This document shows, in pieces, positions 23,090 to 27,411 of a DNA stretch of 37,902 nucleotides. The notes beneath the pieces were generated by a model. It was given only the letters and a program-made list of their open reading frames with translations. It searched no databases and was not told where the DNA came from. The stretch spans positions 1-37,902 of the forward strand of contig BTUM01000078.1 in assembly GCA_045863235.1 (NCBI GenBank). The letters run 5' to 3'. This DNA comes from Candidatus Xenobia bacterium. Its GTDB lineage: Bacteria; Vulcanimicrobiota; Xenobia; Xenobiales; QWHO01. A program made the translations under genes and the position numbers. The stretch's first letter is position 1, and every line of letters starts with the position of its first letter.

Positions 23090-25159
23090 ATGAAGCTTCA
23101 TCGAGTTTGGCAGATTGTTGCGATTTTGGTCCTGCTTGCTGCGGTGGGATGCTCCGGAGGAGCCCAGAGCACGCAGAGCACGGGAGCCGTGCCACAGGAT
23201 GGCTCTGAAGCCCCGAGCCTGACCACACCAGGCGGGCTTTCGGGTCGAGTGACGGACCAATCCGGTCTTCCCGCCGGGGGAGTGACGATTTCCCTCTTTG
23301 AGGCCAATGTTCGCGCTCGCAGCCTGGACGCGGCTATTCAGGGCAAACAGGTTGCGTCCTCTCAGAGTGACGATCAGGGTCAGTTCAAATTCGATGGCCT
23401 GGCAGTCGGCGACTACAACCTCATCGCCGAGCAGTCGACCGATTCCAAAGCCTCAGCCGCCGTTACGGTCACCGGAGAGGCGCAGGACCTGGGCACCCTC
23501 GGGCTCGAGCCCACTGCCACGGTGACCGGACGGGTGATCGTGGTGGGTCGCACGGATGCGAGCGGAATCACAGTGTTCATCCTTGGCTCGAACCTCGAGA
23601 CCCAGACAGACGCGAGCGGAAGGTACACCCTGACAGGCGTTCCGAGCGGAAGCTTCCGGATGTTCGCCTCCAGCGACATCTTCGCCAGCCTGTCGGTGGT
23701 CGAGATCCAGCCGGGGCCGGGCCAGGCTGTCGTCGCTCCCGACCTGATTCTGGTGCCAATCGCTGGCAACTTCACCGGTGTGGTCGCGTTCTCGGTTAAG
23801 GACTCGGAGACCACCAGCCCCCTGGTGGGCGCCACAGTGCGATTGGGCGAAGAGACTCGCAACACCGATTCGACCGGCCTGGCGTTGTTCGATGCCACGG
23901 CGGTGGGACGGCAGCAGTTTCAGGTGACGATGTCGGGCTATCAGGACGTTTCGGATGCGGTAGACATCGTCGGTGGCGGACAGGTCGTACGGGAAGTGTC
24001 CATGCTGCCGGCGGCGCTGATGCCTACCGACGTCAAAGCTGAGCCGACCGGAAACAACCAGGTGACGATTACCTGGAGCCTGACCTCGGATCCGGAGGCC
24101 ACCTATGATGTCTTGCGCAGCGAGACCGAGGGGACCGGCTTTCAGAAAATCAACGCCGGCCCACTGACGACGGCGAAATTCGACGACCAGAACCTCGAGA
24201 GCCTGAGGAGCTACTTCTACCAGGTCCGCTCGGTGAAAGGCGCGGCGGTGAGCCGGGTTTCGGAAACCGTTCAAGCCACCGCCTTTCCCTTCATTTACCA
24301 GAGAATACTGCCACCTCCCGTGGTAGACTTCGCGATAGGAAATCAATCTCAACTTCTGCTTTGCAGAGATCAAGCGCTGGAAGAGCGGCTCGAGGATCTG
24401 AGCTTGCTTCGACAGTATCCCGTGAGCAACCCAACGGGAGTTGCCCAGAACCCTGCGACGGGTGAAGTCTTTGTGTCACGTTCGGCGGAGGTCCTCGTTT
24501 TTGCTTCGAGCGGCACCTTGTTGCGTCTGTGGAACGTCCCGACCAGGCCGGGCGGGCCACACAGTCTCGACCTGACGCTCGATCCCAGTGGCAACGTCTG
24601 GGTCAGGGTGATTGGGTCGGACGACCTTGACTCGCAGTTCTCGGAAGTCATGAAGTTCGACGCGAACGGCAACTTGTTGCTGACTCTGACGGGGCACAGC
24701 TCTCGAGTGACCGATCTCGACACCGACTCACATGGTCGTGTCTACCTGGCCGACTCGGGCTCGCGACTCGTTCGCCGATACTCTTCGAGCGGGGCTCCCG
24801 AGATCACCTGGGGCGGGTCCGGGACCGGCCCGGGCGAGTTTGGGGATCCCGCCTCCGCCCCTGGCGTGAACGTCGGTGATAGGGAGCGTCTGATACTAAC
24901 GGTTGGGCCGGACGACAGCATCTTCGTGTGGTCAGGCACTGACTGCAGAATCCAGAAGTTTACCCCCGATGGCATTTTCCGCTGCCAGTTCGGGAGCCGC
25001 GATGAAAGTGGCGCGGATTTCAATGTCGGGCAGTTCTTCGTCCTGGGGGAACTTGACACGGATGGAAGCGGCAATCTCTACGTCCTTCAATCTGGTGGCG
25101 TTACCCCAGGCTATGTGGGGGTCGGTCAGCTCCTCGACAAGTTCGGTCCGCTCCCCTGA
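23090..25159 (+). CDS. Large lipoprotein: carboxypeptidase-regulatory-like (Cna-B) repeats, FN3 and NHL-repeat propeller
   Basis: Lipobox AAVGC. GRVTD/TDASGRY repeats; FN3 (VTITW..YDVLRS..YFYQV); NHL repeats (DSHGRVYLADS, RIQKFTPDG). Confidence 0.82.
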   Translation: MKLHRVWQIVAILVLLAAVGCSGGAQSTQSTGAVPQDGSEAPSLTTPGGLSGRVTDQSGLPAGGVTISLFEANVRARSLDAAIQGKQVASSQSDDQGQFKFDGLAVGDYNLIAEQSTDSKASAAVTVTGEAQDLGTLGLEPTATVTGRVIVVGRTDASGITVFILGSNLETQTDASGRYTLTGVPSGSFRMFASSDIFASLSVVEIQPGPGQAVVAPDLILVPIAGNFTGVVAFSVKDSETTSPLVGATVRLGEETRNTDSTGLALFDATAVGRQQFQVTMSGYQDVSDAVDIVGGGQVVREVSMLPAALMPTDVKAEPTGNNQVTITWSLTSDPEATYDVLRSETEGTGFQKINAGPLTTAKFDDQNLESLRSYFYQVRSVKGAAVSRVSETVQATAFPFIYQRILPPPVVDFAIGNQSQLLLCRDQALEERLEDLSLLRQYPVSNPTGVAQNPATGEVFVSRSAEVLVFASSGTLLRLWNVPTRPGGPHSLDLTLDPSGNVWVRVIGSDDLDSQFSEVMKFDANGNLLLTLTGHSSRVTDLDTDSHGRVYLADSGSRLVRRYSSSGAPEITWGGSGTGPGEFGDPASAPGVNVGDRERLILTVGPDDSIFVWSGTDCRIQKFTPDGIFRCQFGSRDESGADFNVGQFFVLGELDTDGSGNLYVLQSGGVTPGYVGVGQLLDKFGPLP

Positions 25160-25302
25160 GGAGACGGGCAAGCTTCCAGGCCTGAGGGCACAAGCAGATC
25201 GGCTCCCGTCGCAGACCTGCGAGCCTGGCGGGTCGACTCAAACCTGGCCAGGCGTGTCAGCCAGGAGCAGGGAGCCGGTCAAGCCGCGAGAATTTCTACA
25301 CA

Positions 25303-25647
25303 ATGAAGCGCATTTTCCTGATCCTGGTCGTTCTGACGGCCGTCCTGCCGGCGCTGGCCGAGGCGGCCCGGGGCCCTCGCGTCACGCTCAACTACAATCG
25401 TGCCGACCTGCCTTACGTCGTCAAGCAACTGGGCAAGCGCATGGGGTGCAACGTCTACGTCGGTCCCGAGGTGGCCGGTCAGGTCACGCTGAGCGTCAAG
25501 GACACGCCCGCCGAGGGGGTGCTGAAGCTGGTGCTGGATCTGCAGCCGAAGCGCTTTGACTATAAGCTGGTGGGCAACACCCTGGTGGTGGCCTCTCCCG
25601 AGCGGCTGGGCTCGATCCCGACCGACCTGCTGGGGCCCCGGCGCTAG
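25303..25647 (+). CDS. Stand-alone secretin/TonB short N-terminal (STN/N0-like) domain protein
   Basis: Signal peptide; VTLNY..ADL..V...L....G.N..V.P.V.G.VTL.VKD.P...VL pattern. Confidence 0.7.
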   Translation: MKRIFLILVVLTAVLPALAEAARGPRVTLNYNRADLPYVVKQLGKRMGCNVYVGPEVAGQVTLSVKDTPAEGVLKLVLDLQPKRFDYKLVGNTLVVASPERLGSIPTDLLGPRR

Positions 25648-25714
25648 TCTCCACCGGAGTCATCGGCAGTCCAGGGGCCCGTCAGGCGTGCGGACCTGGA
25701 AGGGCCAGGGCCAT

Positions 25715-25752
25715 AAAAGCATAGTAGGCAGCGCCTACAAGACGCTGCCTAC
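25715..25752 (-). terminator. Intrinsic terminator of the candidate small RNA
   Basis: GTAGGCAGCGTC-TTGTA-GGCGCTGCCTAC (12-bp stem with one G-U on this strand), then TATGCTTTT. Confidence 0.7.
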
Positions 25753-25776
25753 CGTTCGGAGTCTTCCCGCGTATCG

Positions 25777-25824
25777 CTACGCGGCCACCCCTCCGCGGGT
25801 GGGGCGATTACTTGCGTAAATCAA
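25777..25824 (-). CDS. Putative 15-aa small peptide MIYASNRPTRGGVAA
   Basis: TTG start 5 nt after GGAGG; TAG stop at 25779-25777 inside a hairpin. Confidence 0.45.
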   Translation of the reverse strand: MIYASNRPTRGGVAA

Positions 25825-25939
25825 ACCCACCTCCTTTCCCACCGCGATCATCGCGGCATGCGGGCTCCAGGTCGGCCACCCGTTGCCCGTTTCGCAGTCG
25901 TGGCCGCGACTGCGAGAAGCTCAAACCTTTGGAGTCTCA

Positions 25940-25968
25940 ACCATACCAGGGAAAACAGCCCAAGTCAA
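25940..25968 (-). promoter_or_regulatory. Sigma70-type promoter of the candidate small RNA
   Basis: TTGACT (25968-25963), 17 bp, then extended TG-n-TATGGT (25945-25940). Confidence 0.75.
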
Positions 25969-25995
25969 GTAGGATATTCAAGCCATGCCGTGCCA

Positions 25996-27411
25996 TCAGC
26001 CTACCCGGAAGCAATCCCGCCCGGCGTCCTTGGCCGCGTACAGGGCCTGGTCGGCCCGCAGCAACAGGGCCTCCAGCTCGTGCAGGGGAGCGCTGGCCAG
26101 GCCCTGGCTGACGGTGATCCGCAGAGGCTCACCCGACCCGGTCTGGAGGGGCTTGTGCCGGATGGTCGTAGCCAGCCGGTCGGCCGTCTCGGCCGCCCCC
26201 TCGGGACCGGTTTCCGGCAAGACCGCCACGAACTCCTCACCCCCGTAGCGACCAAAGAGATCGCTGTCGCGCAGGGTCTGGCGGCAACACCGGGCCACGG
26301 CGCGCAGCACTTCGTCTCCCACCATGTGGCCATGCGTGTCATTGAACTTCTTGAAGTGATCGATGTCGAGCAGGATGAGGGTCAGCGGCCGCTGAGCCCG
26401 ACGGGCGCTCTTGAGAGCCTGCTCGGCCATCTCGAGCAGGTGGCGGCGGTTCCAGACCCCGGTCAGCTGGTCCACGCTGGCCAGCTCCTGAACCCGGGCA
26501 AACAGCCTGGCGTTCTCCAGGGCGATGCCGGCCTGACTGGCAAAGAGAAGCGCCAGCTGGCCTTCGCGTGGCGCGAAGTCCCGCTCCTCGCGAATCAGCC
26601 GCAGGGCTCCCACGGCAAGGTCCTCGCGCACCATCGGAACACTCAGGGCCTGGCCCTCCAGGACGGGCTGGCGGCTCGCCAGGCAAGTGGCTGCCCAGCC
26701 GGGAGCCGACCCGTCAGGCTCGCCCACGAACCGCTCGCTCGCCTCGTGAGGCACCACGCGGGCCAGGCCCTGCAAGAGGCGATCGAGCACCAATCCGGGA
26801 TCGAGCGTCGCGCTCAAGCTGAGGTTGGTCTCCAGCAGGATATCGGCCAGCTCACGCTCGAGGCGCTCGGCCTGAAGACGCGACTCGAGCTGAGCCGCCC
26901 GGGAAGTCTCCAGGGCCTGAGCGATATGGTTGGCCAGGGCCGTCACTCCTCCCAGGTCCCCCTCTTTGAAAAGGCCAGAGGCAAGGCGATTGTCGAGGTA
27001 GAGCACGCCCACGAGCCGATTCTGGGCCAGCAGAGGCAGGCAGAGGATGCTCCGCAGCCCGGACTCGGTGACACTGCTGCGGTCAGGGAACCGGGGGTCG
27101 CTCATGGCATCGACCACCCGGACCGGCTCTCGGGTCTGGGCCACCTGGCGCACGATCGGCATACTGTAAGGTTGGTCCAGAGCCACAAAGTGGCCCAGCC
27201 GGAAAGCAGCCGCCGGGCGCAAGCGGCCTTCCTCGGAGGCCAGCAGCAGGATGCCCCGATCGCAGCGCAGCAGCGAGACCAACCGCGCCAGAGCCTGGCG
27301 AGCATGCTGCTCGGGCTCGAGCACCGTGCCCGCGCTCAGGTTCAGTTGGAGGAGAGTCTCCATGCAGCGACCGAGCCGCGCGGCGTCAAGGTCGGATCCG
27401 GGCTCGTCCAT
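25996..27411 (-). CDS. GAF-GAF-GGDEF diguanylate cyclase
   Basis: GAF (LCLPL..Q.RLVGVLYLDN); DQLTGVWNRR, DIDHFK.FND.HGH..GD, RDSD I-site, GRYGGEEF. Confidence 0.92.
   Translation of the reverse strand: MDEPGSDLDAARLGRCMETLLQLNLSAGTVLEPEQHARQALARLVSLLRCDRGILLLASEEGRLRPAAAFRLGHFVALDQPYSMPIVRQVAQTREPVRVVDAMSDPRFPDRSSVTESGLRSILCLPLLAQNRLVGVLYLDNRLASGLFKEGDLGGVTALANHIAQALETSRAAQLESRLQAERLERELADILLETNLSLSATLDPGLVLDRLLQGLARVVPHEASERFVGEPDGSAPGWAATCLASRQPVLEGQALSVPMVREDLAVGALRLIREERDFAPREGQLALLFASQAGIALENARLFARVQELASVDQLTGVWNRRHLLEMAEQALKSARRAQRPLTLILLDIDHFKKFNDTHGHMVGDEVLRAVARCCRQTLRDSDLFGRYGGEEFVAVLPETGPEGAAETADRLATTIRHKPLQTGSGEPLRITVSQGLASAPLHELEALLLRADQALYAAKDAGRDCFRVG

What the first reader, a model, noticed from the sequence alone, without database searches (positions are those of the whole stretch)
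25715..25968. Unannotated ~220-nt structured RNA with an 11-nt match to the 16S rRNA tail
Seen: between two convergent genes there is a complete minus-strand unit. It has a TTGACT-17-TG.TATGGT promoter, a 5' closing stem CTCCA..AGGTT/GACC.TGGAG, a 9-bp hairpin (25915-25892), a hairpin at 25856-25842, GAAAGGAGGTG (25838-25828), GCAA- and GCGA-capped hairpins, and an intrinsic terminator. Established: the 3' end of many bacterial 16S rRNAs is ..CACCUCCUUUC, so this SD could pair over 11 nt, far more than normal initiation needs. Inference: an abundant RNA that captures or parks 30S subunits (ribosome sponge, hibernation or translation tuning), or a dual-function sRNA. I recall similar GAAAGGAGGTG-sORF-hairpin units in actinobacterial intergenic regions, but this is unverified.
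Basis: partly seen in the sequence, partly recalled or inferred. Interest (0 to 1): 0.9.

Follow-up and report, generated by a model that had tools for sequence, protein, structure and literature searches.

The report
Ribosome-switched mini-mRNA family
This is a real, conserved small RNA that carries a very strong ribosome-binding site, a tiny 14-codon reading frame and two alternative folds, so it looks built to grab and hold a ribosome rather than to make a useful peptide; relatives occur in several bacterial phyla, and it resembles an unexplained Caulobacter RNA that can be tested in the lab.

Summary
The unit is real. It is a single-copy, promoter-to-terminator RNA found in 24 of 44 genomes of its class, Xenobia, with no Rfam match.

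(1) The long SD is a true ribosome-binding site. It heads a 14-15 codon ORF that starts AUU/AUC 6 nt downstream in 29 of 31 Xenobia cores.
(2) One strand of that ORF pairs either back onto the SD (closed) or forward into a pseudoknot (open). Both pairings survive compensatory changes.

The same core occurs in Armatimonadota, behind an orphan sigma factor, and a similar one in Chloroflexota, before smpB-ssrA; there the starts are AUG/GUG/UUG. The peptide is not conserved. There is no antiterminator (0 of 31), and the downstream gene is often convergent.

Closest known: Rfam CC2171, function unknown. It has the same anatomy but the model test fails. The Caulobacter RNA at that locus holds a ribosome-occupied ORF.

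Best reading (0.45): a mini-mRNA that loads a ribosome and holds it between the SD and the pseudoknot. Abundance and ribosome binding are not shown; the RNA-seq check was inconclusive.

The parts
25940..25968 (-). sigma-70-type promoter with extended -10; predicted start about 25933-25934
   Evidence: a TTGA(C/T)N-17/18-TAnnnT arrangement found in 17 of 17 loci (permissive regex)
25892..25915 (-). hairpin P1 (Xenobia-specific 5' domain, sequence variable)
   Evidence: single-sequence folds
25842..25856 (-). hairpin P3, ending 21 nt before the start codon
   Evidence: 97.7% of cells paired, 1 of 5 pairs with a change on both sides
25828..25838 (-). extended Shine-Dalgarno, 11-nt complement of the organism's own 16S tail
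25798..25831 (-). P4, closed fold: 25831-25826 pairs with 25803-25798 and buries the 3' half of the SD, the spacer and the start codon
   Evidence: 100% paired in 18 sequences; 4 of 8 pairs with changes on both sides across two phyla
25777..25821 (-). 14-codon ORF, AUU start at 25821, UAG stop at 25779-25777
   Evidence: frame and stop kept in 49 of 49 cores
25785..25802 (-). S1, open fold: 25802-25797 pairs with 25790-25785; excludes P4
   Evidence: 96% paired, 3 of 7 pairs with changes on both sides
25757..25795 (-). S2: 25795-25791 pairs with 25761-25757; a pseudoknot together with S1, a nested stem together with P4
   Evidence: invariant in 18 Xenobia sequences; 3 of 6 and 3 of 5 pairs change on both sides once Armatimonadota are added
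25767..25784 (-). P6 hairpin holding the stop codon
   Evidence: (74% paired, imperfect alignment)
25715..25753 (-). intrinsic terminator directly after S2
   Evidence: 8 of 10 pairs with changes on both sides

Best explanation
A stand-alone mini-mRNA whose job is to engage a ribosome; the RNA fold, not the peptide, is the functional product. SHOWN by comparison: own promoter and terminator, a single copy per genome, an extended SD, a short conserved frame, and two mutually exclusive pairings of the same strand (P4 closed; S1 plus S2 pseudoknot open). INFERRED: (1) The free RNA rests closed. (2) 30S binding through the long SD opens P4. (3) The released strand forms S1 and completes the pseudoknot 19 nt after the first base of the start codon, just past the edge of an initiating ribosome, while P3 flanks the 5' side. 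(4) The ribosome is held by the strong SD behind, a weak IF3-policed AUU in the P site (Xenobia only) and the pseudoknot ahead. (5) It is released slowly by translating to the stop in P6, and P4 re-forms behind it. The net effect is a condition-dependent ribosome hold or buffer, probably tied to translation stress.
For: Frame and stop are kept in 49 of 49 distinct cores; the stop lies 15-21 nt after the switching strand and varies among UAG, UAA and UGA. AUU/AUC sits at +6 in 29 of 31 Xenobia cores, and the organism's own infC starts with AUU. P4 is 100% paired; one genome changes all three strands together (L070); across phyla 10 of 18 pairs change on both sides and 0 of 500 shuffles reach that. 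The peptide is not the conserved thing: one Gly codon is GGA in 31 of 31 while a neighbouring codon gives six different residues. The closed fold is -110.3 and the open fold -104.9 kcal/mol before adding S2; SD binding is worth -21.2. Neighbours vary and are often convergent. Where the context is fixed it is suggestive of translation stress: smpB and tmRNA follow in the Chloroflexota loci, and an orphan sigma with its own upstream ORF precedes the Armatimonadota units. The look-alike Caulobacter RNA CCNA_R0051 holds an ORF with ribosome footprints of 2049 RPKM in minimal medium and 0 in rich medium at similar RNA levels (PMC4117421, supplementary file 2 rows).
Against: No experiment shows ribosome binding, stalling or pseudoknot formation. 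AUU is not universal: one Xenobia core uses UUG, and the other phyla use AUG, GUG or UUG, so IF3 sensing cannot be the common principle. Very high abundance, which a sponge needs, is not shown, and the Caulobacter look-alike is only about 900-1500 RPKM. The genome already encodes HPF-family proteins. S1 is only 4-7 bp in Armatimonadota and Chloroflexota, a weak roadblock. The single-sequence minimum-energy fold of the window RNA (-112.3) uses a non-conserved long-range pairing, though it keeps P4. The RNA was not found in family f3 (0 of 19) or in 67 genomes of the other classes of the phylum. Covariation counts include related sequences and overstate independence.
Confidence: 0.45

Rival explanations
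1. A translation-gated sensor or trans-acting sRNA: ribosome loading flips the fold and changes the RNA's stability, or exposes the C-rich strands that can pair with the SDs of other mRNAs.
For: The same bistable anatomy. Both mobile strands are anti-SD-like. Medium-dependent ribosome occupancy of the Caulobacter look-alike.
Against: Both C-rich strands have conserved partners inside the RNA and covary with them. No unpaired seed is conserved across phyla. No target search was run.
Confidence: 0.2
2. An mRNA for a functional 12-16 residue peptide that is kept repressed by P4, as in tightly controlled small-toxin mRNAs.
For: Conserved frame and stop. Recurrent endings within each phylum.
Against: The N-terminal half is unconstrained and the C-terminal residues follow base-pairing. 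The peptides differ between phyla and are not hydrophobic. No plus-strand promoter for an antisense RNA was found.
Confidence: 0.15
3. A ribosome-sensing attenuator that controls read-through into the next gene; most plausible for smpB-ssrA in Chloroflexota.
For: ORF plus terminator. Fixed position before smpB: Pfam-confirmed in 2 of the 4 loci scanned, seen by eye in all 7. Weak U-tracts there.
Against: In the window's family the next gene is convergent. No pairing that could open the terminator in 0 of 31 Xenobia cores. Not tested for the Chloroflexota loci.
Confidence: 0.1
4. A pure 30S decoy with no productive translation, or a sponge for a GGA-binding protein.
For: Extended SD. Invariant GGA loop in Xenobia.
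Against: Frame and stop conservation imply elongation. The SD is half buried. No CsrA match in the 97.6% complete genome. The loop changes in other phyla.
Confidence: 0.1

Closest known systems
Rfam RF01867 CC2171 (alphaproteobacterial sRNA, function unknown; probably Caulobacter CCNA_R0051 with ORF CCNA_03965, identity inferred from its position between CC_2171 and CC_2172)
   Same: Stand-alone RNA with a terminator; extended SD; near-cognate start; short ORF whose late codons pair back on the SD. In 5 short CC2171-like copies (sub-threshold matches, 36-52 bits): 8-bp P4, a 7-8 bp long-range S2 with one compensatory change, 14-16 codons. Their peptides end like those of the Chloroflexota units. 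Expression by Northern blot (bioRxiv 10.1101/2022.01.24.477521, passages). Ribosome footprints.
   Different: The window does not match the model; the Armatimonadota homologue scores 16.7 bits against a cut-off of 75. The CC2171 SD is near the 5' end, whereas Xenobia add about 95 nt with three hairpins. Start GUG against AUU. S1 was not demonstrated in CC2171. Longer members (21-33 codons) fit the pattern less well.
Leader-peptide attenuators and uORF motifs such as ilvB and fthC (PMC11109978, passages)
   Same: SD, short ORF, stop codon in a hairpin, terminator.
   Different: No antiterminator, no consistent downstream gene, no run of sensing codons.
infC-type non-canonical starts with extended SD (PMC13009471 and PMC4705826, passages)
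   Same: An extended SD directing an AUU start; about 10% of AUG output in S. aureus; IF3 discriminates against AUU.
   Different: Those start real proteins. Here the frame is 14 codons on its own transcript.
ColIb-P9 repY/repZ pseudoknot switch (mechanism recalled; only reference titles seen) and type I toxin mRNAs with very long, sequestered SDs (recalled)
   Same: A translation-induced pseudoknot; an SD hidden by the RNA's own downstream sequence.
   Different: No coupled downstream gene, no antisense RNA found, no hydrophobic peptide.

Membership tests
CC2171 (RF01867) | model score at or above 75 bits | tested here: not met
   no hit on the element at E up to 10; not among the own-genome hits
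CC2171 (RF01867) | extended SD, short ORF that pairs back on the SD, long-range stem before the terminator | tested here: met
CC2171 (RF01867) | SD within about 15 nt of the 5' end | tested here: not met
   about 95 nt of leader in Xenobia; met only by the Chloroflexota units
Leader-peptide attenuator | antiterminator pairing | tested here: not met
   0 of 31 cores pair better than shuffles
Leader-peptide attenuator | consistent co-oriented downstream gene | tested here: not met
   convergent in the own family and in several other loci
Type I toxin mRNA | hydrophobic peptide | tested here: not met
   translations
Type I toxin mRNA | antisense antitoxin RNA | tested here: inconclusive
   no plus-strand promoter match in 25000-26700; no stranded reads available
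tmRNA | tRNA-like domain and model match | tested here: not met
   the genome's tmRNA is on contig C2
6S RNA | model match, long rod with central bubble | tested here: not met
   a sub-threshold candidate lies on C34
CsrB/RsmZ-type sponge | CsrA in the genome and several GGA loops | tested here: not met
   only one conserved GGA loop
IF3-regulated AUU start | initiation rises when IF3 falls | not testable with these tools
   only the sequence context was seen

The most novel reading that the evidence does not exclude
The Xenobia, Armatimonadota and Chloroflexota units and CC2171 are branches of one unrecognised, widespread class of bacterial RNAs: mini-mRNAs that clamp a ribosome between an extended SD and a translation-induced pseudoknot. 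They would act as an RNA-based ribosome storage or translation-stress device alongside HPF and tmRNA.
Probability: 0.3. Interest if true: 0.92.

Novelty: new variant of a known kind. Interest (0 to 1): 0.78.

Why it matters
To my knowledge, bacterial ribosome storage and buffering are known as protein jobs. A dedicated RNA that loads, holds and releases a ribosome through a fold switch would be a new layer of translation control. The anatomy found here also gives a concrete, testable mechanism for CC2171, an RNA catalogued since 2008 without a function and present in tractable hosts (Caulobacter, Methylorubrum). It shows that a conserved ORF can exist to switch RNA structure and not to make a peptide.

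Tried and rejected
RNA-seq: 24 runs were listed; 4 of them, from 4 studies, were laid. All were contigs. The element was covered in 4 of 4, but the contigs ran into flanking DNA and depth cannot rank genes, so this says nothing on ends, strand or abundance.

By model on those 80 plus 2 viral loci, 12 were strong hits and all were Xenobia-type sequences, some under other record titles. Other classes of the phylum: 2 of 41 weak hits, rejected; 0 of 67. Actinomycetota centre: 2 of 121, spurious. Bacillota centre: 4 of 401 against 5 control matches. Five more handles gave three weak hits with E of 0.08 or worse, not inspected. Viral contigs: 0, 3 and 4 stretches, none a homologue. These searches score only 34-150 candidates per genome, so absence is not shown.

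Rows dropped: 9 of 24 Armatimonadota hits, 2 of 9 Chloroflexota hits, 2 of 20 metagenome loci. L275 and L279 were accepted by eye but missed by the script. Of 16 viral CC2171-pattern loci, 8 matched the Rfam model below cut-off and 8 did not.

Model R2 was built on mis-indexed columns (corrected count) and served only as a sequence profile.

The in-frame ATG at 25851 was rejected: it lies upstream of the SD and is not conserved (by eye). The peptide look-up was not completed, and Landt 2008 could not be read.

Full report
Observation. The RNA folds far better than shuffles (z -5.6) and has no Rfam match at the gathering score or, meaningfully, at E up to 10. It is single-copy in its genome. 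The organism's own 16S tail is on contig C136 and complements the SD; 2 of 11,382 long ORFs have an upstream site as strong.

Distribution. Record titles place the relatives in Vulcanimicrobiota, class Xenobia. A covariance model finds one strong copy in 24 of 44 genomes of the class: f1 5 of 5 including the own genome, f2 16 of 16, f4 2 of 3, f5 1 of 1, f3 0 of 19. A test on 40 assorted genomes gave one homologue, in an Armatimonadetes-titled genome. Searching that phylum gave 23 of 121 genomes with hits; I accept 15 after inspection. A Chloroflexota-centred search gave 9 of 121, of which I accept 7; the pattern is in 5 of 5 published genomes of that family. Phylum names come from the record titles of the centre genomes. 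Homology of the Chloroflexota units is inferred from anatomy and weak scores (23-28 bits). Nothing credible was found in the Actinomycetota or Bacillota samples.

The reading frame. Six bases after the SD core the window has AUU, which opens 14 codons that end in UAG at 25777. In 49 of 49 distinct cores (31 Xenobia, 13 Armatimonadota, 5 Chloroflexota) there is an in-frame start 4-10 nt after the SD and an in-frame stop 15-21 nt after the switching strand. Xenobia use AUU/AUC at +6 in 29 of 31; one has it at +7 and one uses UUG. The other phyla use AUG, GUG or UUG. The organism's infC also starts with AUU. Extended SDs direct such starts in S. aureus at about a tenth of AUG output (PMC13009471, passages), and IF3 discriminates against AUU (PMC4705826, passages). 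The peptide looks like a by-product: one codon is GGA in 31 of 31, while its neighbour encodes six different residues.

The switch. The strand at 25803-25798 can pair with the SD-spacer (P4) or with 25790-25785 (S1), not with both. P4 is paired in every cell of 18 sequences. S1 has compensatory changes in 3 of 7 pairs. In L070 all three strands change together. S2 joins the S1 loop to a strand just before the terminator; it is invariant in Xenobia and covaries once Armatimonadota are included. Over P4, S2 and P6, 10 of 18 pairs change on both sides; 0 of 500 shuffles reach that, and slid controls fall to 44-51% paired against 88%. Related sequences inflate these counts. The closed and open folds lie within about 5 kcal/mol before S2 is added, and SD binding is worth 21. 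S1 begins 19 nt after the first base of the start codon and P3 ends 21 nt before it, which leaves 39 nt, about one ribosome footprint (footprint size recalled).

Not an attenuator here. The next gene is convergent in the own family and in several other loci. No upstream segment pairs with the terminator better than shuffles in 0 of 31 cores.

Context elsewhere. In Armatimonadota a small sigma-70 gene lies directly upstream in 9 of 15 loci and downstream in 1. A TTTAG-containing promoter-like motif precedes the RNA in 11 of 15, and the sigma has its own SD-led upstream ORF in 8 of 10. The window's genome lacks this sigma. In Chloroflexota the unit sits between an S41 peptidase and smpB, with tmRNA next. 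Both contexts are suggestive of translation stress but do not prove it.

Comparison with what is known. An earlier scan note pointed to Rfam CC2171. The window is not a member by score. CC2171 members and look-alikes do have an extended SD, a GUG-led short ORF and SD-pairing late codons; five short copies also have an 8-bp P4, a 7-8 bp S2 and 14-16 codons. CC2171 is expressed in Methylorubrum (bioRxiv 10.1101/2022.01.24.477521, passages; its supplements are closed). In Caulobacter, the RNA at that position, CCNA_R0051, contains a new ORF mapped by ribosome profiling, with 2049 RPKM footprints in minimal medium and 0 in rich medium (PMC4117421, passages and supplementary rows; the zero could be technical). 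None of the passages I saw gives a mechanism or notes the SD pairing. Ten literature searches and term look-ups in the main text of two motif surveys (PMC5737381, PMC11109978; their supplements, which list motifs, were not searched) found no description of this family. Subscription journals are mostly not covered, and Landt 2008 was not available.

Verdict. This is a real, undescribed RNA family that works like a translated switch and shares its anatomy with CC2171 without being a scored member. The anatomy is shown by comparison. Ribosome holding is the most likely function (0.45) but is untested, and abundance is not shown.

Noticed in passing
G000:C1, around 27380 (minus strand): infC has no ATG/GTG/TTG start; it begins with ATT 5 nt after an SD, so IF3 autoregulation is probably intact.
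   Followed up: partly
L267, L269, L271-L273, L276, L278-L281: A small orphan sigma-70 factor in Armatimonadota with an SD-led upstream ORF in 8 of 10 loci and a promoter-like TTTAG motif after it.
   Followed up: partly
L292-L298: An SD-sORF-terminator unit between an S41 peptidase and smpB-tmRNA in a Chloroflexota family; a possible ribosome-sensing control of trans-translation genes.
   Followed up: partly
L273 and L276, downstream genes: A RIO1-family kinase and RsgA, both linked to the small ribosomal subunit, follow the RNA in single loci. Anecdotal.
   Followed up: no
G000:C34:8852-9026 (minus): A probable divergent 6S RNA, 35.5 bits, below the cut-off of 46.4.
   Followed up: no
window 25969-25984 (minus): A 16-nt stretch just upstream of the -35 box is almost unchanged in the five genomes of the own genus although the upstream genes differ; a possible regulator site.
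   Followed up: no
window 25303-25647 (plus): A small exported protein with a weak secretin-N0-like match (E 1e-4, below cut-off) that stays next to the RNA in the own genus.
   Followed up: no
L327, L334, L338 (viral contigs): Short CC2171-like RNAs lie beside a tRNA on viral contigs, probably host DNA at prophage edges.
   Followed up: no
Xenobia family f3: The RNA was not found in 19 of 19 genomes of this smaller-genome family; loss or divergence.
   Followed up: no
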